Positions 27,231 through 38,208 of a stretch of DNA of 38,208 nucleotides are shown one piece after another. Location of the stretch: IMG/VR virus record IMGVR_UViG_3300029705_000040, positions 1 through 38,208 of that record. One strand, given 5' to 3'. Both the position numbers and the translations under genes were made by a program. Every line of letters starts with the position of its first letter. The first letter of the stretch is position 1. The notes below the pieces were generated by a model, which was not told the origin of the DNA, ran no database searches, and was given only the letters and a program-made list of their open reading frames with translations. The stretch comes from a virus (Duplodnaviria > Heunggongvirae > Uroviricota > Caudoviricetes).

Positions 27231-27321
27231 TGCCCCTTAGGTTAATGGTAAACCGCCGGTCTCTAAAACCGTTATACTCTCTGAAAGGGTAATCTGGGTT
27301 CGAATCCCAGAGGGGTAGCCA
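27231..27321 (+). tRNA. Amber suppressor tRNA (anticodon CUA) with long variable arm
   Basis: Acceptor TGCCCCT/AGGGGTA, G73, CCA; D stem GGTT/AACC; loop CT-CTA-AA (27263-65); ~20-nt variable hairpin; T arm CTGGG-TTCGAAT-CCCAG. Confidence 0.88.
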
Positions 27322-27325
27322 ATAC

Positions 27326-27403
27326 TGGGGATTAGCATAACGGCTATTGTGCGGCGGACTCTAAATCCGTTTTGAGCTGGGTCGGCACCAGCATCCCCCG
27401 CCA
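27326..27403 (+). tRNA. Amber suppressor tRNA (anticodon CUA), tRNA-Gln-derived
   Basis: Acceptor TGGGGAT/ATCCCCC, G73, CCA; anticodon arm GCGGA-CT CTA AA-TCCGT (27361-63), close to Firmicute tRNA-Gln ACGGA-CT TTG AC-TCCGT; atypical T loop GTCGGCA. Confidence 0.88.
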
Positions 27404-28649: not shown

Positions 28650-31010
28650 ATGGCTGGAAATAATGTAATACAGATACTCAGGGGTACTAGAGATGAGATC
28701 GCTTCTAACAAAAATAAAGATGTGATGCTCAACGAAGGTTAGCTTCTTTATAATCTTACAGATAATTATCTTACCTGTGGTGGTGAAAATGGTAGTAAGT
28801 TAACTAGCCTACCAGTAACTACTAGAAGTATGTCAGGTCATTATGATGATTAGATAATGGGAATATTGCCATCTAATTGCCTTGATGGATCTGTTGATAA
28901 ATACAGAGTGGGCCCAGTAGTAACACCAACTAGAGTAGAGTATGATGAGAATGGCGATCCTATAAAAACTTATTATGACTCAAAATTTGAAATAGATTCT
29001 GCTTTAGGATCAAAAATTATCTTAGGCTCAGATTTTATTAAGTTATCTTTAAGTGATGGTAAACATGTAACACTAAATTCTTCAGGTTTTTCATCATCAA
29101 GTGGATCATCTGCTAGCTCAGTAAACGCAACAGATTTATCAGCATCTTCTGCAAATATTGGTGGAGCACTTACTTCGAGAAGCATAAGTGTTGGTGGAAC
29201 TAAGACTTATTTATCCGCTAACGGTAATGCTGTAACTTTAAGAAATGCTAAAAAGATTCTATTAGATGGTGAAAATGGTACTATAGAGCAAAAAGCAAGC
29301 AGCATAACTCAAGAAGCCATAGTATTAGATTCTAAAGTTGCTGTTATTAATTTCAATTCGCAAGTAGAGATTGGAACTACTGCTGCTAGATTAAATCTAA
29401 AATTCGCTAAACCAACTAATATAGATGGGAATATTAATTTTACTGGAAAAGTAACATCATCTTACACACCTAGAGATGAGAATGATGTAGTAAGACTTAA
29501 AGATTTAGGTGTTAATATAGATTAGTTGCAAGATTCTATCGATGGAATTGTTATTCCAGATAAATCTTCTTCATCTGCAGTAAGTGATTCTGTAGTTGTA
29601 ACTGAGTCAGATTTAGATGATCAATATTCTGTTATTATAAGTACTGCTGGTGAAAAATCAGCTTTATCAGCTACACCTAAAAATTTAGTATCTATAAATC
29701 CTAAAAATGGTAGAATGACTGCTGGTAGATATACTGTGAGCACAGCAGATCAGCAAGTTGAAAGAGATAATGCACACGGTATAAATTTAAATAACTCTGA
29801 TGCAATAAACGCTCATGCTATACACTTTAATAACACTGGAAATTATGGTTTAACATTCTCTAGTAAGAATGATCGCTTTTATGTAGATAGAGGCACTGCT
29901 TTTATCTAGACTAAAAATGATAAAAATGAAACTATAACTAAAACACTTCTTACTCAAGAAGGTGGTGATATAACAACCCTTAATATATAGAATGATTTTA
30001 CCGTTGGCGGTAAATTGACTGTTAATGGAAGCTTTCAACCAAATAAACTAGTTATAGCTGGTGCTAATTAGCATGTGCGTGATGGTGCTAAATCTTATGG
30101 TTTCTATGCAAATAATTCTGATATTGATGGTGTATATAATATAAGGTTTGAGACACATGCAGATAACCCAGATCAAGGTATCTTATTCTAGAATCGTGAT
30201 TTTGATAATCAATATTATAGATTAGCAGCTGAGACATCAAATACAGGACCTAAGTTATATTTAAGTACTGTAAAGTATGATGAAAGTGGTAAAAAAGTTA
30301 TTGGTGTTGGAACTAATGATTCTCATGTAAAATACGAAGTTATAACATCTAAAGGTGGATAGACTATAGGTGATGGAACTACCACAAACAATCTTTAGAT
30401 GTTTACAGTAAACGGTCACCAAACAGTAACAAAGACCTTAACAGCAAACAAAGCTTCTTTAACAGATTTATCTGTTAGCGGCGGTGCTGTAAGCATTAAG
30501 AATAAAAGCAATAAAACAGGTGAAATAGTCTTAACAGATGGAAGTGTTACTGCTAAAACTATAACTGCTACTGATACTATAAAATCTAATAAAAATATAA
30601 TAGCCAGCGGTGATATTACAGGTAACGTATTGCAGACTAGTGGTTCTCATAATGTAGTTATCGATGGTAATACAGGTAATATTTCCGGTGCTTATCTAGA
30701 TGGTACAGCAAATTATGCTAAACACTTAGCGCCTGGAGCCGTTAAATTAGGCCTTCTTCCTGAAGGCACCTATACAGGTAACGATCCAAACACTTTGTAT
30801 ATTTTAGTATGTAAATCTAGCGATGGCAAATCGAATTGCACATTTAAGTCTAAGTATGCTTATGATTATTGCTATATAAGAATATCTTCCGATGATGATC
30901 ACAACAAAGAGGACGCTGGAAGCATGAGTGCTGGAACTGAGTTAAAAATACATAATGATACAAATGATGATTGGATACATACTTGGTTGTATGTATACAC
31001 TAAAAATTAA
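28650..31010 (+). CDS. Tail fibre / receptor-binding protein (786 aa) with Mtd_N-like N-terminus; one gene with 9 in-frame TAG
   Basis: GAGGA RBS, ATG 28650; TAG at 28740, 28851, 29523, 29907, 29988, 30069, 30189, 30360, 30396; joins track fragments 28857, 29526 and 30399 in one frame; IQILRG...EG-LLYNLT N-terminus; beta-helix-like body; DVVRLKDL motif. Confidence 0.85.
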
Positions 31011-33033: not shown

Positions 33034-33062
33034 TTGATTAAATAATCAAAATATTATATAAT
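33034..33062 (+). promoter_or_regulatory. Phage promoter AG-TTGATT-N17-TATAAT upstream of the ncRNA/tRNA block
   Basis: Exact 17-nt spacer. Confidence 0.85.
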
Positions 33063-33274: not shown

Positions 33275-34325
33275 TAAACGGTGCCACGAAGCCAAAGCGT
33301 TCGCGATATAGATGTTATTAAATCTCTCAAAAACGGATCTGGGAAGAAAGCAGCTGTGGTAAATGGAATGAGATAAACAGCCGTTATTAAAACTCAAATA
33401 TAATCAATGACGCCTCGGAAAGACGAGCATTAACTGGTTGGGTAGTTAGGTCATCATCTCTCAACTTGAAATGACCAGATTTGTTTATATTTGAGTAACA
33501 ATTTAATTGAACACTGTAGTTTAACAGCAGCAAGTCGTAAACACCTCATCTAGAAAGGGGAGAAGTGGTTTCGGTAGATGGTAAGTGCAATTCACCACTA
33601 GTTAGTTCAATTAACAATAAAAACCTAGGTATTCAAAACGTAGAGTAAAATCCGCGTGGAGGAAGGTCAGACATTTCTAATTCAAGTGCACAAAGGATTA
33701 GAAGTGAGTTGTTGTCAGGACATTTAGTTATTAGTCCTATCCGTATGAGACAATGAGGTTATCCCCGAAGGATAACTGACGGTGAAAAAGTTGAGTAGAC
33801 CTTTAATCGAAAGATGAAATAACTGCTTATATATAATATTGTACTGAAGTTCACAAATCGATTCTCAGCAAAATGTGTATCTGAAAGATGGTAAATTGTG
33901 ATAGTACACTACTTCGGCGAGTACAATATTTTGGTGCGGAATAAAGAGTTGATTTACATGTCCGCGAAAGTCAACCACCTTTAGAAATTAGTCGTGTAAG
34001 GCATTATACGGCGCGTAGTAATTATTGATGTGGTAGGTCCGTTGAAAGATTACGGCACCCATCAAGCGGGGCGTGTATGAATGATATAGTCGCTAAGCCC
34101 CGCGGCGACATAATTAATGTAACGGTCAATAAATACTAATTGTTAACCGTGGTTAGTTGCAGAGAGGATAGATGCTCAGTGGAATAGTTGTGAAATATCA
34201 ATTCTACCTCTTCAGAGTTTAATTAAGGACTGACGTTACTTTTGGAAACGACACAAAGGCGTACAGACTAAACCAACGAGAAGGGTTTATCCGTAACTGG
34301 ACAACACGTTAGAAATTGTCCGTAT
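33275..34325 (+). ncRNA. Candidate large ornate ncRNA (GOLLD/ROOL-like); boundaries approximate
   Basis: About 1 kb with no plausible ORF and higher GC; perfect long-range stems 33392-402/33486-96, 33503-12/33605-14, 33835-45/33920-30; GAAA-capped hairpins; abuts the tRNA array. Confidence 0.65.
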
Positions 34326-34329
34326 ATAC

Positions 34330-34405
34330 TCCAGGGTGTTAGCAATGGTAGCTGGCGAGGTTCATACCCTCGAGGTTGTGAGTTCGAGTCTCACCCCTGG
34401 GCCCA
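34330..34405 (+). tRNA. tRNA with CAU anticodon (Met or Ile2), atypical C73
   Basis: CGAGG-TT CAT AC-CCTCG; T arm GTGAG-TTCGAGT-CTCAC; encoded CCA. Confidence 0.8.
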
Positions 34406-34408
34406 AAT

Positions 34409-34486
34409 CACTTACTCGACTAACTGGTAAGTCGTCCGCTTGAGCGCTGCGGAGGTTAGAGGGTTCAAGTCCCCTGTAAGTGGCCA
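34409..34486 (+). tRNA. tRNA-like gene with 9-nt anticodon loop (TTGAGCGCT); identity unassigned
   Basis: Acceptor CACTTAC/GTAAGTG, G73, CCA; D stem GACT/AGTC; stem TCCGC/GCGGA. Confidence 0.7.
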
Positions 34487-34655
34487 TTTAAGGTAAGGCC
34501 TTCTCTAACAGGTAGACTTTAAATTAGTTAGAGTCAAGCGTTTCTCGATATCGTATAAAGAATCGAGCTTTAATTTGTTATCTTAATACGCTTGTTGGTT
34601 CGTATTTATTTAACTTAATCTATGTATTGTTTAACTGGATAATACATAGATACAT

Positions 34656-34738
34656 GGGTAGCATGGCGAAATCTAGAAGACGCGAGGGTCGCTCCCTTAC
34701 CGAAAGGTGTGTAGGTGCAAGTCCTGCTGTGCCCACCA
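34656..34738 (+). tRNA. Leu-type class II tRNA-like gene with 5-nt anticodon loop (TCGCT)
   Basis: GCG/CGC D stem, GAGGG/CCCTT stem, variable arm ACC-GAAA-GGT, T loop TGCAAGT, A73-CCA; bulged G in the acceptor stem. Confidence 0.65.
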
Positions 34739-34803
34739 TCAGATTTATAATCTGAAACCTCTTTTTATTTACACATTAATGGTAGTATTTTCTACCATTA
34801 TAT

Positions 34804-34873
34804 CTATGGATAGTCTAGCGGATAAGACGCTGGTTAAGAGCCAGTATCGCAGGTTCGAATCCTGCTCTATAGC
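34804..34873 (+). tRNA. tRNA-like gene with shortened anticodon arm (loop TAAGA), C73, no CCA
   Basis: Acceptor CTATGGA/TCTATAG; D stem GTCT/AGAC; T arm GCAGG-TTCGAAT-CCTGC. Confidence 0.65.
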
Positions 34874-35151
34874 ACGCTTATAACAGGTTGTAAAGGCCTA
34901 ACAACTTTAGAGGTAAGATGGCTGATTGAAAAAGATCAGCATACGTATCCTGAGTGCCCTTCGATTCGGTTCGACTCCAAACATTCGCATCGGAATAGCG
35001 AGAGGGTAGGTCACGAGAGTCGTAAGATAGTTCGAGTCTATCCCTCAAGTTTATCTTTTTACAATTACTAAATATGTGCTAAAATTATTGTATAATATAT
35101 TATATGATATAAGGAAACATATTTATGAGTGAGAAAAAAGATTAGAAATTA

Positions 35152-36006
35152 TTGAAAAAATATCTTCTTAAAAATGTTGAAAATGGATATGTACCATCAC
35201 CGGAAGATACTAGAGACTACACAATTAAAAATGTTGCTTTAGAAGAAACAGATGAAATACCTGAAACTTACATAAAGAAGGGTATGAAAGTACTTAGTCA
35301 AGGTAATGTTGGAAGTTGCGTTGCTCATGCTTGTGCCACTGCTATGGGGTATGGTGAGTTAGCTGGTGGTTTTGAAACTGCTCATGATTTCAGTAGAGGT
35401 TATATCTATGGTAATAGAGGTCCTGCTGATTCGCAAAGTGAAGGTATGTATATACGTCAAGCATTAAAACAGTTAAATAAATGTGGTGATGTTGAGTATA
35501 TAGATTTTCCGCTAAATGCTAAATATCCAGTAGTTAAAGCAGAAATAGAGAAGAATAAAGATGCTTTAGCTGAAAAAGCAGCTCAATTTAAAATAGTAAA
35601 TTACTTTAGATGCTATAGTGATGAGGAAGTTAAGAAGACTCTTCTAGCTCAAGGTGCCGTAGTTATAGGTATTCCTGTATATAGCTCATTTAAAGCGGAA
35701 TGTCCATTACCTGATGCTGATGATAAACGCACTGGTGGTCACGCTATGGTTGTTGTTGGTTGGGATGAAACAGGCTGGATTATACAAAATAGTTGGTCTA
35801 GCAGTTGGGGTAAGCAAGGATTTATGCATTTACCATACGATTATCCTATTGATGAGTTATGGGGAATAACAGTCAATAAAAATGTTCCACAACCTGAACA
35901 AAAATCAGCTACAGATAGAATTGTTGCTTTCCTCGCTTTCTATATTAAGTATCTATTAAGAGAAATTAAAAGATTTTTTTTACAAAAAATAAGTAAAAAT
36001 AGTTGA
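35152..36006 (+). CDS. Papain-like (C1A) cysteine peptidase
   Basis: SQGNVGSCVAHA (Gln/Cys), GGHAMVVVG (His), IQNSW (Asn), WGKQG. Confidence 0.88.
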   Translation: MKKYLLKNVENGYVPSPEDTRDYTIKNVALEETDEIPETYIKKGMKVLSQGNVGSCVAHACATAMGYGELAGGFETAHDFSRGYIYGNRGPADSQSEGMYIRQALKQLNKCGDVEYIDFPLNAKYPVVKAEIEKNKDALAEKAAQFKIVNYFRCYSDEEVKKTLLAQGAVVIGIPVYSSFKAECPLPDADDKRTGGHAMVVVGWDETGWIIQNSWSSSWGKQGFMHLPYDYPIDELWGITVNKNVPQPEQKSATDRIVAFLAFYIKYLLREIKRFFLQKISKNS

Positions 36007-36031
36007 TCTTTTGTATTAAATAATATATAAT
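36003..36031 (+). promoter_or_regulatory. Phage promoter AG-TTGATC-N17-TATAAT driving the second RNA block
   Basis: -35 overlaps the peptidase TGA stop. Confidence 0.85.
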
Positions 36032-36148
36032 ATAAATGTAAATTAAATATTTGAGTAGTGAGTATAAAGCTTTATTAAATAAGCTACACGTACAAATATG
36101 CTTACTAGTAGGTCCGTACAACCGAAAAAGCATATGTAGCAGGAATTA

Positions 36149-36221
36149 GGTGATCTGGTGTAATCAGGCAGCATGCTGGGCGGGACGCCCGGAGGAGCCG
36201 TTCAAATCGTGCAAGTCGCTG
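36149..36221 (+). tRNA. Degenerate tRNA-like gene (loop CGGGACG, no U33)
   Basis: Stem CTGGG/CCCGG, T loop TTCAAAT, imperfect acceptor stem, no CCA. Confidence 0.45.
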
Positions 36222-36393
36222 AATAAAAAGAGAAATTCCTTAAAATTGTTTAATAAGAAAAATATGCGTAAAATATTAATAGCAAGATAGTCACTTAAAA
36301 TTTAGATAATAGCAAGACTGTGAGTAATATGATGTACACATAAATCTCACCGCATATCCTAAAGATGAAAGTTCTTTAGCTCAAATATTATAT

Positions 36394-36482
36394 CACTGGA
36401 GGTTCGCTATAGGTAAGCGGAGCGTGCTGTGCACGTGAGTTGGTAGTAACAACTCTTATCGGTTCGAGTCCGATTCCGGTGC
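36394..36482 (+). tRNA. Class II-shaped tRNA-like gene, possible His identity (GUG in loop, C73), no encoded G-1 or CCA
   Basis: Acceptor CACTGGA/TCCGGTG; 6-bp D stem; loop CTGTG(CA); variable arm GAGTTG/CAACTC; T arm ATCGG-TTCGAGT-CCGAT. Confidence 0.6.
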
Positions 36483-36546
36483 AAACTGATATAGCCCGAC
36501 GGGGCTTGAGATTATGTTGACGCTGTGGAATTAGACACAGATGCAT

Positions 36547-36683
36547 CGGAACCTAGCTCAACCAGGTGAGAGCCCCGGTCTTACGTAGAGAAAGGAATCA
36601 GTTAGTTCAATTCTAACCCCTACGACCATAAACCGGAAGCCCTAGCAAGGTAAATCTGAGTTCGATTCTCAGGGTTCCGACCA
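36547..36683 (+). tRNA. Interrupted tRNA carrying a 45-nt mini-tRNA insert (36584-36628) in its anticodon loop
   Basis: Perfect acceptor CGGAACC/GGTTCCG, A73-CCA; D stem GCTC/GAGC; anticodon stem CCGGT/ACCGG flanks the insert; T arm CTGAG-TTCGATT-CTCAG. Confidence 0.8.
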
Positions 36684-36687
36684 AGAT

Positions 36688-36763
36688 GGGCCATTAGCGC
36701 AATGGTTAGAGCTCCCCGCTCATAACGGGGCGGTTCTCGGTTCGAGTCCGAGGTGGCCCACCA
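36688..36763 (+). tRNA. tRNA-Ile2 (CAU, lysidine type) or tRNA-Met
   Basis: Canonical 76 nt: GGGCCAT/GTGGCCC, CCCCG-CT CAT AA-CGGGG, A73-CCA; acceptor resembles bacterial Ile2. Confidence 0.88.
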
Positions 36764-36784
36764 CTTTTATTTGTAGGTGTTAGC

Positions 36785-37012
36785 ATGAAGAAAAACAATG
36801 AGTATAATCTTTTTAATGAAATTTTATACATGATTGATAATTGGTGTGATGATTCGATTAGCTTTATCAATAGAAATGATTTTATTGTGCAAGTACATAA
36901 TCAATGGTCAAGATATCAAGCCTATCCGAGAATGGTTTCGATTTCAAAAAAGAGTATTATAGTTGTTTGGTCAAACGAATTTAGAGATAAATATTTAAGA
37001 AACAAAAATTAA
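36785..37012 (+). CDS. Hypothetical protein
   Basis: 75 aa. Confidence 0.65.
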   Translation: MKKNNEYNLFNEILYMIDNWCDDSISFINRNDFIVQVHNQWSRYQAYPRMVSISKKSIIVVWSNEFRDKYLRNKN

Positions 37013-37021
37013 GGTGTAGTT

Positions 37022-37342
37022 ATGTTTCAAAATGTTGTTGTAGGATACCCTATCGTAGATCCTAAAGAACTCATTGCTTTAGACGATCAAGATTGGGAAT
37101 CAGAAAAACAGAATACATTATTTACAGATTCTAGATTTCTTCCAAATATATTAAAAGAAGCTGGTGTAGTAAAATCTACTAGTGAGGTTAGAAAAAATAA
37201 GCCTGAGTTAGTAATTACTCTAGATAAACCAGATTGTTTTATGCTTAAATATGGTAAGAAAAGAATTTATATAATAGTTGGTTTAGAAACACTCGAACAA
37301 AGAGATGCTTTAATTTTTGAGTTAGATAATAAAATTAGTTGA
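37022..37342 (+). CDS. Stand-alone protein resembling the S4-like C-terminal domain of TyrRS
   Basis: ILKEAGVVKSTSEVRK...LKYGKKRIYII. Confidence 0.6.
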   Translation: MFQNVVVGYPIVDPKELIALDDQDWESEKQNTLFTDSRFLPNILKEAGVVKSTSEVRKNKPELVITLDKPDCFMLKYGKKRIYIIVGLETLEQRDALIFELDNKIS

Positions 37343-37367
37343 TTTAATTGTTAAAAGATTATATAAT
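37339..37367 (+). promoter_or_regulatory. Phage promoter AG-TTGATT-N17-TATAAT
   Basis: -35 overlaps the TGA stop; exact 17-nt spacer. Confidence 0.85.
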
Positions 37368-37541
37368 ATAAATGTAATAAGAAGTTTTTAGATTCTATAT
37401 TATGCATTAAATTATTATAAAAACAGATAAAAATTAACGCTAAATTAAATATACTTTCCTGTATATATTATTAGTAGTTTAAAAATTTAATAATACAATA
37501 TCCTCGAGTGGTGGAATGGGTATTACATCATTCGATTAAAT

Positions 37542-37625
37542 CGCTCCGTGTCGGAACAGCAGACGAACTCGACTTAAAATCGAGCGCCCTTGAGCGTGTG
37601 GGTGCAAATCCCACCGGAGCGACCA
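37542..37625 (+). tRNA. tRNA-Leu (UAA)
   Basis: CGCTCCG/CGGAGCG, CTCGA-CT TAA AA-TCGAG, long variable arm, A73-CCA; T loop TGCAAAT. Confidence 0.88.
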
Positions 37626-37726
37626 ACAGTTCGGTAGCGAAAGAGTAATTAACTTTCGAGTAATACGCTGACCCGTAAGCGAACATTTTTATTATAAATT
37701 TCTTTTAGGTCAGGGGAGAAATATTA

Positions 37727-38208
37727 ATGTCTGAAAAGCGTAAAGTTTAGCAACCAAAAACACAATGCAATAAATGTGGTAGATTCATTACAAATGCTAA
37801 TTTTAAAAAACACTCCAATAGTTGCGATGGTATAATTAAAAATTATGCATCTAAATATGATTATATATCAAACTTGATATGTCCATTTTGTGATTGTAAA
37901 AAAGAAACTAGAAATAGCCTTATTCAACATATTGTTAGATGTCCTAAAAATCCAGATAGGAAAGATTGGGATAAATTAGGAAAATATTCAACAAAAAACC
38001 GAAGAGGATAGACTAAAGAAACTAACAATAACATTGCGTTAGTAACGCAAAAATTAGTAGAATCTTATAAAAATGGAACTAGAAAAAGCTAGCTAACCCA
38101 TGGAACTGTTACGAGTATTTATAAGGATCACAACGATCAAGAAATAGCTAAATATTTATCTTATATAAGTACTTTATCTGAGACATTACCTAAATACAAT
38201 AAAATAAA
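37727..38208 (+). CDS. Zinc-finger protein, possibly a homing endonuclease N-terminus; 3 in-frame TAG; 3' truncated
   Basis: GGAG RBS; CNKC...H...C, CPFC...H...CPKNPDR, G[TAG]TKET; TAG at 37748, 38009, 38090. Confidence 0.75.

What the first reader, a model, noticed from the sequence alone, without database searches (positions are those of the whole stretch)
34409..36683. tRNA array dominated by genes with intact acceptor/T arms but broken anticodon loops
Seen: six tRNA-shaped genes have non-canonical anticodon arms: 9-nt loop (34409), 5-nt loops (34656, 34804), no U33 (36149), 5-nt or weak 7-nt loop (36394), and a 45-nt insert (36547). Acceptor and T arms mostly stay paired, often through G.U pairs, and three of the six still encode CCA. 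Random decay would not spare the stems while hitting only the loop. Inference: selection for a non-decoding role, such as decoys or cleavage-proof mimics against anticodon nucleases (PrrC, RloC, VapC or PARIS type), ligands for T-box or RelA sensing, or frameshift suppression (9-nt loop).
Basis: partly seen in the sequence, partly recalled or inferred. Interest (0 to 1): 0.75.

Follow-up and report, generated by a model that had tools for sequence, protein, structure and literature searches.

The report
Mixed odd tRNA-shaped genes in phage
The six "broken" tRNA genes at the head of this gut/rumen phage's tRNA island are not one class of decoys: one is a tRNA split by a tRNA-shaped intron, one is probably a working tRNA, three are tRNA look-alikes that cannot read codons as drawn, and one is not tRNA-shaped at all.

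Summary
The window is the first 38 kb of a 164-kb TAG-recoded phage. Its tRNA island runs from 34.3 to 55.4 kb and holds 35 ARAGORN tRNAs. Four of the six elements are solid cloverleaves: 34409, 34804, 36394 and 36547. Element 34656 is marginal, and 36149 is not tRNA-shaped.

- **36547** is a long-armed tRNA(UAU) gene. Its anticodon loop holds a 45-nt acceptor/T-arm minihelix ending in A-CCA. Near-identical phages carry three alleles whose 7-bp stems differ completely yet still pair (6 of 7 pairs changed on both sides). Removing the minihelix leaves CUUAUAA in every allele, and a related phage has the gene uninterrupted. This scan has noted the same "tRNA-shaped intron" design in at least 57 other genomes. 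Devoto et al. 2019 reported similar "enigmatic" introns in Lak phages. Splicing is inferred, not shown.
- **34804** scores 48.6 bits as a tRNA and can present a normal 7-nt loop.
- **36394** keeps all 30 pairs across four variants, but its anticodon arm is a closed 6-bp/3-nt hairpin.
- **34409** (9-nt loop) and **34656** (5-nt loop) show looser constraint and are present, absent or replaced in relatives.
- **36149** is a piece of a separate conserved, covarying structured RNA.

The decoy reading is untested. Selection on structure holds for two elements only.

The parts
34409..34485 (+). tRNA-shaped gene with a 9-nt anticodon loop (UUGAGCGCU) and encoded G-CCA, starting 3 nt after tRNA-Met
   Evidence: Sequence and fold. 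ARAGORN finds it only with the intron option. No Rfam tRNA hit. The 9-nt loop is kept in L112 and L119, and the gene is absent in L115/L117.
34656..34738 (+). Marginal tRNA-shaped gene: 5-nt loop UCGCU, long variable arm, A-CCA, 5 of 7 acceptor pairs
   Evidence: 18 bits. The three changes in L112 fall in the D loop and at an existing mismatch. L119 carries a different tRNA-shaped cassette at this place.
34804..34873 (+). Probable working tRNA (anticodon AAG) with a 15-nt anticodon arm and no encoded CCA
   Evidence: ARAGORN default. Rfam tRNA 48.6 bits. The 7-nt-loop cloverleaf is 3.8 kcal/mol above the closed form. Identical in L007, L009 and L112.
36060..36235 (+).
   Evidence: RNAalifold on the window, L008, L115 and L119 gives 30 pairs, 10 with compensatory change. 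No tRNA or YrlA hit. It follows a promoter-like site at 36003-36031. RNA-library contigs cover 36090-36263 and 35994-36382.
36394..36482 (+). tRNA-shaped RNA with a closed 'anticodon' hairpin (GCGUGC-UGU-GCACGU), a 6-bp D stem and a second 6-bp arm with 7-nt loop GUAGUAA
   Evidence: All 120 cells pair in 4 variants. Five stem changes all preserve pairing, one of them U-A to C-G.
36547..36583 (+). 5' exon of the long-armed tRNA(UAU): acceptor CGGAACC, D arm, anticodon stem CCGGT, loop CUUA
   Evidence: Parse table. Homologous to the intronless L003:107-196.
36584..36628 (+). 45-nt tRNA-shaped insert (minihelix): 7-bp acceptor-like stem, 10-nt linker, T arm GTTAG-TTCAATT-CTAAC, A-CCA
   Evidence: Three alleles; 6 of 7 stem pairs changed on both sides; 0 of 500 shuffles reach the observed values. 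Differs by 31% from L112, against 0-3% in the exons.
36629..36683 (+). 3' exon of tRNA(UAU): loop UAA, stem ACCGG, 19-nt variable region, T arm, GGTTCCG-A-CCA
34330..34405 (+). Canonical tRNA-Met(CAU), context
36688..36763 (+). Canonical tRNA-Met(CAU), context; its homologue in L108 is split after CAU by a 465-nt ORF-bearing insert
33034..33062 (+). Promoter-like site ahead of the large ncRNA and the first tRNA group
   Evidence: 10 of 12 match; consensus match only.
36003..36031 (+). Promoter-like site ahead of the second group (36060-36763); part of a 42-nt repeat also at 37337-37377

Best explanation
The six elements are a mixed set at the start of a phage tRNA island. They lie in two transcription units behind consensus-like promoters.

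1. Element 36547 is a class-II-like tRNA(UAU) gene for the common AUA codon. A 45-nt insert shaped like the top half of a tRNA splits its anticodon loop. I infer that host RNase P cuts at the insert's 5' end and a 3'-end nuclease cuts after its CCA. The phage RNA ligase would then join the 3'-OH and 5'-P halves, giving a tRNA with loop CUUAUAA.
2. Element 34804 is probably a working tRNA(AAG) with a short anticodon stem.
3. Elements 36394, 34409 and 34656 are tRNA-shaped RNAs whose anticodon arms cannot decode as drawn. They are probably released by the usual tRNA-end processing. 36394 is kept by selection for its fold and has an unknown non-decoding role. 34409 and 34656 are fast-turnover or degenerating cassettes.
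4. Element 36149 is part of a different conserved structured RNA.

Shown here: the structures, the covariation, the intronless homologue and the presence of a ligase gene. Inferred: every processing step, the aminoacylation state and any function.
For: - The window begins a 164-kb virus record with 35 tRNAs between 34.3 and 55.4 kb.
- 36547 parse: the three insert alleles are CGTAGAG/CCCTACG, GATCGAT/ATCGACC and GCTCTCT/AGAAAGC. Each forms 6 of 7 Watson-Crick pairs and ends in A- or G-CCA. Six of 7 pairs changed on both sides, and 0 of 500 shuffles reach the observed values.
- In L115 the outer acceptor (TGAGGAC/GCCCTCA) and T stem (TCGAG/CTCGA) covary with the window's.
- Removing the insert from its first base to its CCA gives CTTATAA in all alleles, although the insert sits one base further 3' in the window allele.
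- The intronless homologue L003:107-196 shares the D arm and the variable region and has loop CTTATAT.
- ATA makes up 36% of Ile codons, 26.5 per 1000 codons.
- The phage encodes a PF09414 RNA ligase with a PHA02142 OB domain.
- The record has no group I intron, EndA or RtcB.
- Devoto et al. 2019 (PMC6784885) describe Lak-phage tRNA introns that 'may encode a tRNA'.
- 34804: 48.6 bits.
- 36394: all 120 cells pair and one change is compensatory.
- 34409 and 34656: indel, absence and replacement in relatives.
- 36149 region: 10 covarying pairs and no cloverleaf.
Against: - No RNA data cover 36547, so splicing is not shown.
- Comparative depth is thin. There are three insert alleles and four variants of 36394, all from one phage lineage. 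For 36394 the shuffle control is not significant (128 of 500).
- No homologues of 34409, 34656, 34804 or 36394 were found outside 96-98% relatives. Their age and constraint are therefore poorly known.
- A recent recombination block could explain the stretches with no substitutions.
- A second tRNA-shaped gene with a 9-nt loop exists in L003. Expanded loops may therefore be functional rather than decayed.
- The more stable fold of 34804 is a closed hairpin.
Confidence: 0.62

Rival explanations
1. One reading: all six are selected, non-decoding tRNA mimics. They would act as decoys or cleavage-proof mimics for tRNA-targeting defence nucleases, or as ligands for tRNA sensors.
For: - Structural selection on 36394 and 36547.
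- Three elements encode CCA.
- Closed or short anticodon hairpins recur: 36394, 34656, and the L119:564-636 cassette with a 13-nt closed arm.
- Cassettes turn over quickly among 96-98% relatives, as is typical of arms-race genes.
- The phage carries an RNA ligase.
Against: - 36547 has an intronless homologue, and its restored loop is conserved.
- 34804 scores as a normal tRNA.
- 36149 is no cloverleaf.
- Anticodon nucleases and T-box leaders read the anticodon loop, which these RNAs lack (established knowledge of PrrC, RloC, VapC and T-box specifier pairing).
- No defence or counter-defence test was possible.
Confidence: 0.12
2. Ordinary debris: the odd genes are decaying tRNA pseudogenes and recombination scars of a fast-shuffling tRNA array.
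For: - 34656 has two acceptor mismatches and no GG in its D loop.
- 34409 has a T-stem mismatch, gains a 1-nt insertion in L112 and is absent in L115/L117.
- Orphan T arms and composite elements lie elsewhere in the island: 41762, 44563-44675, 51405-51574 and 53862.
- Arrays differ greatly between relatives.
Against: - Covariation in 36547 (outer and inner stems) and in the 36149-region RNA, and fully preserved pairing in 36394.
- No source paralogue exists for any odd gene in the genome or in 437 tRNAs of related loci.
- There are no substitutions in 34583-35047 across three relatives whose flanks differ by 2-6%.
- A phage of high coding density is unlikely to keep about 1 kb of junk.
Confidence: 0.18
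3. Unusual decoders: the 9-nt-loop and 5-nt-loop genes are charged and used on the ribosome, for frameshifting, quadruplet reading or sense-codon recoding. This would extend the phage's TAG recoding.
For: - The phage already recodes TAG and carries two tRNA(CUA) genes.
- 34409 has an intact acceptor and G-CCA, and its loop is kept in three variants.
- A second 9-nt-loop gene exists in L003.
- No tRNA-Ala is called in the island. One parse of the 34409 loop gives AGC.
Against: - 34409 lacks the G3.U70 Ala identity pair.
- Known natural frameshift suppressors have 8-nt loops (own knowledge; PMC7609411 mentions only an 8-nt case).
- Loops of 3 to 5 nt cannot present an anticodon.
- I did not look for quadruplet or shifted reading in the ORFs.
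Confidence: 0.08

Closest known systems
'Enigmatic' tRNA introns of Lak megaphages (Devoto et al. 2019, Nat Microbiol, PMC6784885)
   Same: A phage tRNA gene is interrupted in the anticodon loop by a short insert that itself looks like a tRNA. Copies exist with and without the insert. The phage is TAG-recoded and comes from the gut.
   Different: - The host tRNA here is a long-armed tRNA(UAU) in a 164-kb phage.
- Three alleles with completely different, covarying stems occur among 97-98% identical genomes, whereas Lak introns were reported as nearly identical across cohorts.
- Splicing is unproven in both cases.
Group I self-splicing introns in bacterial tRNA anticodon loops (for example the cyanobacterial tRNA-Leu and tRNA-fMet introns, the latter carrying the PD-(D/E)XK endonuclease I-Ssp6803I; own knowledge)
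   Same: The position is in the anticodon loop. The L108 relative has an insert with a PDDEXK_5 ORF in tRNA-Met.
   Different: A 45-nt insert cannot hold a ribozyme core. There is no RF00028 hit in the phage or in L108.
Non-decoding viral and cellular tRNA look-alikes made by tRNA-processing enzymes: phage T4 species 1 and 2 RNAs in its tRNA cluster, MHV68 vtRNAs, MALAT1 mascRNA, plant mitochondrial t-elements (own knowledge, not tested here)
   Same: Acceptor/T-arm architecture with a non-functional anticodon arm, encoded among or beside real tRNAs. This fits 36394, 34409 and 34656.
   Different: There is no sequence relation, and no processing or expression data exist for these three. The closed 6-bp/3-nt arm and 6-bp D stem of 36394 are not features of those RNAs as far as I know.
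Phage tRNAs that escape anticodon nucleases through anticodon-loop substitutions (van den Berg et al. 2023, eLife, PMC10264068; listed, abstract only read)
   Same: Phage tRNA genes with altered anticodon loops, interpreted as counter-defence.
   Different: Those are working tRNAs with 7-nt loops. Here the loops are 3, 5 or 9 nt, or are interrupted.
allo-tRNAs, including a UAU group (Mukai et al. 2017, PMC5389517)
   Same: A long variable arm combined with a UAU anticodon.
   Different: allo-tRNAs are defined by an 8/4 or 9/3 acceptor/T-stem. The 36547 family is 7/5.
YrlA, the bacterial Y-RNA-like RNA with a tRNA-like module (Rfam RF02553)
   Same: A tRNA-like module without a decoding anticodon.
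   Different: No RF02553 hit at E<=10 on 33400-37800. The elements here have the normal, non-permuted strand order with free 5' and 3' acceptor ends.

Membership tests
Canonical tRNA (Rfam RF00005) | Score at or above the 29-bit gathering threshold | tested here: not met
   Met only by 34804 (48.6 bits). 34656 scores 18 bits. 34409, 36149, 36394 and 36547 have no RF00005 hit at E<=10; 36394 hits tRNA-Sec at 17.5 bits.
Canonical tRNA (Rfam RF00005) | 5-bp anticodon stem with a 7-nt loop, U33 and purine 37 | tested here: not met
   Loops are 9 nt (34409), 5 nt (34656), 3 nt in the stable fold (36394) and interrupted (36547). 34804 can form UUAAGAG on a 4-bp stem.
Canonical tRNA (Rfam RF00005) | 7-bp acceptor stem plus T arm at tRNA spacing | tested here: met
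   7/7 pairs in 34409, 34804, 36394 and 36547, against 0.03 expected by chance. Not met by 34656 (5/7) or 36149.
tRNA-shaped (minihelix) introns of phage tRNAs | The insert lies inside the anticodon loop of an otherwise complete tRNA | tested here: met
   36584-36628 lies between CUUA and UAA of a perfect outer cloverleaf.
tRNA-shaped (minihelix) introns of phage tRNAs | The insert folds as an acceptor stem plus T arm and ends in NCCA | tested here: met
   All three alleles do so, and 6 of 7 stem pairs covary.
tRNA-shaped (minihelix) introns of phage tRNAs | An uninterrupted homologue exists, and excision restores a 7-nt loop | tested here: met
   L003:107-196 is uninterrupted (loop CTTATAT). 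Excision gives CTTATAA in all alleles.
tRNA-shaped (minihelix) introns of phage tRNAs | The insert is removed from the RNA and the halves are joined | not testable with these tools
   The RNA-library contigs do not cover 36547-36683.
Group I intron | Ribozyme core detectable (RF00028), length about 200 nt or more | tested here: not met
   The insert is 45 nt. There is no RF00028 hit in the phage record or in L108.
Archaeal/eukaryal protein-spliced tRNA intron | Bulge-helix-bulge motif and an EndA-type endonuclease | tested here: not met
   By eye, a 5-bp helix is flanked by 4 and 7 unpaired bases, not 3-4-3. There is no PF01974 or RtcB in the record, which is 76% complete.
YrlA / bacterial Y RNA | Match to RF02553; tRNA-like module in permuted order on a Ro-binding stem | tested here: not met
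   No hit at E<=10. Strand order is normal.
allo-tRNA | 8/4 or 9/3 acceptor/T-stem configuration | tested here: not met
   The 36547 family and 36394 are 7/5.
Frameshift-suppressor tRNA | Expanded (8-nt) anticodon loop on a chargeable tRNA, with shifted reading shown | tested here: inconclusive
   34409 has 9 nt, not 8. Charging and decoding cannot be tested here.

The most novel reading that the evidence does not exclude
The 45-nt insert in tRNA(UAU) is a mobile, tRNA-shaped intron that ordinary tRNA-end enzymes excise: RNase P at its 5' end and a nuclease after its CCA. The phage's own RNA ligase then reseals the tRNA. This would be a splicing route not demonstrated for any tRNA. The insert's acceptor stem is under diversifying or replacement pressure, with three unrelated but pairing stems in phages that are 97-98% identical elsewhere. 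The neighbouring closed-anticodon look-alikes (36394, and the L119 cassette that shares the insert's T arm) would be free-standing relatives of the same element, acting as non-decoding RNAs.
Probability: 0.3. Interest if true: 0.8.

Novelty: new variant of a known kind. Interest (0 to 1): 0.52.

Why it matters
- Automatic tRNA finders miss or mislabel most of these genes. ARAGORN calls 36394 His. With the intron option it calls 36547 Val(UAC) and 34409 Arg, and it calls the L119 homologue of 34409 Ala. Phage tRNA inventories and codon-usage arguments built on such calls are therefore unreliable.
- The 36547 alleles give unusually clean natural covariation for a tRNA-shaped intron. They also show that its stem turns over far faster than its host gene. 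This makes the proposed RNase P plus ligase splicing route directly testable with one short transcript.
- 36394 shows that a phage maintains a tRNA-shaped RNA that cannot decode. This bears on the old question of what the non-tRNA stable RNAs in phage tRNA clusters do.

Tried and rejected
- BLAST of 33600-37700 against 50,697 phage records matched only tRNA-Met.
- Single-protein locus searches in IMG/VR found nothing.
- The profile search gave 80 loci at 26-51% protease identity. None has a homologue of the odd genes.
- Exact-pattern scans: the 34409 anticodon arm gave 7 chance hits in GC-rich coding DNA. The 36547 5' exon and the minihelix core gave nothing in IMG/VR, JGI metagenomes or GTDB genomes. 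In one search my pattern fitted only allele 2.
- No paralogue of any odd gene was found among the genome's 35 tRNAs or among 437 tRNAs of all loci.
- A covariance model of 36394 found only its training sequences in 1.5 Mb of related phage DNA. The next hit, at 34.9 bits, is an unrelated tRNA-Asn.
- RNA runs: four metatranscriptomes hold 5-9% of the sampled words. Their contigs do not cover 34409-34727 or 36483-36684, so they say nothing on expression or splicing of those genes.
- RtcB, T4 Rnl1, CCA-adding enzyme and EndA families were not found, but the record is only 76% complete. The Rnl1 control rang nowhere, so that search is uninformative.
- More distant homologues of the 106-aa neighbour gene lie outside tRNA islands.
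- I considered a diversity-generating retroelement for the hypervariable insert and rejected it. The changes are not adenine-specific, and they are paired across the stem.
Full report
**Setting.** The window is bases 1-38208 of a 164,204-base IMG/VR virus record, estimated 76% complete. The DNA is about 31% G+C and is coded almost wholly on the + strand. Late genes carry in-frame TAG; the ORF at 28650-31010 has nine. Two tRNA(CUA) genes lie at 27231-27403. ARAGORN on the whole record finds 35 tRNAs, 33 of them between 34330 and 55373, and none for Ala. The finding therefore covers the first 2.4 kb of a 21-kb tRNA island. Promoter-like sites with 10 of 12 consensus matches stand at 33034, 36003 and 37339. 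The last two lie inside a 42-nt repeat.

**Checking the six elements.** A T arm plus a 7/7 acceptor at tRNA spacing occurs five times in the 1618 non-coding bases of 34300-36799. The expectation is 0.03 in 2000 shuffles. Four of the five are odd genes: 34409, 34804, 36394 and 36547.

- 34409 is a clean cloverleaf with a 9-nt loop and G-CCA, yet Rfam's tRNA model does not report it even at E<=10 on a 501-base stretch.
- 34656 has a 5-nt loop, a long variable arm and A-CCA. Only 5 of 7 acceptor pairs form and it scores 18 bits.
- 34804 has a 15-nt anticodon arm. The other is a 4-bp stem (5 bp with G26.U44) with the ordinary loop UUAAGAG. That parse is what ARAGORN and Rfam accept, at 48.6 bits. 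Its energy is -19.7 kcal/mol, against -23.5 for the closed form.
- 36394 folds with z = -2.65 into an acceptor, a 6-bp D stem, a 6-bp hairpin with a UGU triloop, a second 6-bp arm with a 7-nt loop, and a T arm.
- 36149 has no convincing acceptor or T stem and no Rfam hit.
- 36547 is a perfect outer cloverleaf with a 45-nt insert.

**Relatives.** Public phage records and IMG/VR hold no close relative. I found relatives through the papain-like protease gene at 35125-36006 and the 106-aa gene at 37022-37342.

- Ten contigs from several samples are 100% identical to the window.
- L007, L008, L009, L108 and L112 are 97-98% identical.
- L119 is about 96% identical in shared blocks.
- L115, L116 and L117 are 72-92% identical.

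The arrays are mosaic. L115/L117 lack 34409, 34656, 34804, the protease gene and 36394. L119 lacks 34804 and the protease gene, and carries unrelated DNA in their place.

**Element 36547.** A segment-by-segment parse shows three insert alleles.

| Allele | Loci | Layout |
|---|---|---|
| 1 | window, L108, L114, L119 | CUU-A, then CGTAGAG...CCCTACG-A-CCA, then UAA |
| 2 | L008, L112 | CUU, then GATCGAT...ATCGACC-A/G-CCA, then AUAA |
| 3 | L115-L117 | CUU, then GCTCTCT...AGAAAGC-A-CCA, then AUAA |

The T arm (GTTAG-TTCAAnT-CTArC) and the linker (AnAGGAAkCA) are conserved. The 7-bp stem differs completely between alleles but always forms 6 Watson-Crick pairs plus one A.C. On the insert alignment, 6 of 7 stem pairs changed on both sides and 91.7% of cells pair, against 27-47% when partners are slid. 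None of 500 shuffles reaches the observed values. Against L112 the insert differs at 31% of positions, while the exons differ at 0-3%.

In L115 the outer acceptor and T stem also covary with the window's. Removing the insert from its first base to its CCA gives the loop CUUAUAA in every allele, although the insert sits one base further 3' in allele 1. L003:107-196, from a phage with 63% protease identity, is an uninterrupted homologue. It has the same D arm, the same 19-nt variable region and loop CUUAUAU.

ARAGORN's reading with the intron option (Val, UAC) cannot be right, because it would give a different anticodon in each allele. ATA is 36% of Ile codons in this genome.

The insert cannot be a group I intron. 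It is only 45 nt, and RF00028 has no hit. The junctions do not form a bulge-helix-bulge, and the record has no EndA or RtcB.

The insert has the features a bacterial RNase P substrate needs, namely stacked acceptor and T stems and a 3' NCCA (established knowledge). The phage encodes an ATP-dependent RNA ligase of family PF09414. From this I infer excision by tRNA-end nucleases followed by ligation. Nothing shows it, because the RNA contigs do not reach this gene.

Devoto et al. 2019 reported Lak-phage tRNA introns that 'may encode a tRNA' and called them enigmatic. Earlier notes of this scan describe the same design in at least 57 other genomes, and in this window as a separate finding. I reached the RNase P plus ligase idea before reading those notes. 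They are not independent evidence.

**Element 36394.** Four distinct variants differ at six positions. Five are in stems and all keep pairing: A-U to G.U, U.G to C-G, G-C to G.U, and a double change U-A to C-G in the second arm. The sixth is G to U in the T loop of L008. All 120 cells pair. With so little divergence the shuffle control is not significant (128 of 500).

The closed hairpin GCGUGC-UGU-GCACGU is invariant. ARAGORN's His(GTG) reading needs a stem with one mismatch and two wobbles, shifted by two bases from an all-Watson-Crick alternative. The phage also has a normal tRNA-His at 54539. An alternative parse takes the second arm as the anticodon arm (loop GUAGUAA, with U at the second and A at the sixth position) and the closed hairpin as an insert. 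It cannot be excluded.

**Elements 34409 and 34656.** The 9-nt loop of 34409 is kept in L112 and L119. However, L112 has an extra C in the 3' strand of the T stem, and L115/L117 go straight from tRNA-Met to the spacer. In L119 the spacer homologous to 34527-34660 is followed by a different tRNA-shaped gene, L119:564-636. It has a perfect acceptor, A-CCA, a 13-nt closed hairpin and the insert's T stem GTTAG/CTAAC. L003:5330-5403 is another tRNA-shaped gene with a 9-nt loop. Aberrant anticodon arms therefore recur in this phage group as exchangeable cassettes. That pattern argues against pure decay, but it does not show function.

**Element 36149.** Homologues in L115 and L119 (72% identity) share a long hairpin at 36083-36140, the hairpin at 36176-36192 and several single-stranded motifs. 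Ten of 30 predicted pairs carry compensatory changes. The loop of the supposed anticodon arm is 5, 9 or 7 nt in the three lineages. The element is part of a roughly 175-nt structured RNA that begins after the promoter-like site at 36003. RNA-library contigs cover it.

**Verdict.** The set is heterogeneous:

- one intron-split tRNA;
- one probable decoder;
- one conserved non-decoding look-alike;
- two loosely constrained look-alikes;
- one piece of another RNA.

Noticed in passing
window 33600-34320 (probably from about 33275): A G+C-rich stretch without ORFs is covered at depth 8-250 by metatranscriptome contigs in four runs of two animal-gut studies. The contigs stop at 34309-34320, just before tRNA-Met. 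There is no Rfam hit, GOLLD and ROOL included. It looks like an abundant large ncRNA heading the tRNA island, as GOLLD and ROOL do in other phages.
   Followed up: partly
L108:1394-1858 (homologue of window 36688-36763): In a 92-97% relative the tRNA-Met gene is split right after CAU by 465 nt, of which 414 nt encode a PDDEXK_5 endonuclease-like protein. There is no group I hit. About 50 non-coding bases remain, and a 6-bp pairing joins the anticodon region to the insert's 3' end.
   Followed up: partly
window 34874-35045: This structured spacer has two T-loop-like hairpins (34965, 35026). It has no substitution in L007, L009 or L112, although the flanks differ by 2-6%.
   Followed up: partly
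window 27231-27403: Two adjacent tRNA(CUA) genes, one 91 nt with a long variable arm and one 78 nt, match the in-frame TAG codons of late genes.
   Followed up: no
window 35125-36006: A papain-family (Peptidase_C1) protein gene with one in-frame TAG sits inside the tRNA island. It has more than 100 homologues on large phage-like contigs, often next to tRNAs.
   Followed up: partly
genome 41762, 44563-44675, 51405-51574, 53862 (beyond the window): Further orphan T arms with A-CCA lack an upstream acceptor partner, and there are composite tRNA-shaped elements with two T arms.
   Followed up: partly
L119:564-636 and L003:5330-5403: Other tRNA-shaped genes with aberrant anticodon arms occur in related phages: a 13-nt closed hairpin in L119 and a 9-nt loop GUAGAAGAA in L003.
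   Followed up: partly
window 36003-36048 and 37337-37377: A 42-nt repeat carries a near-consensus promoter-like site ahead of two successive RNA gene groups. A similar hexamer pair lies at 33034-33062.
   Followed up: no
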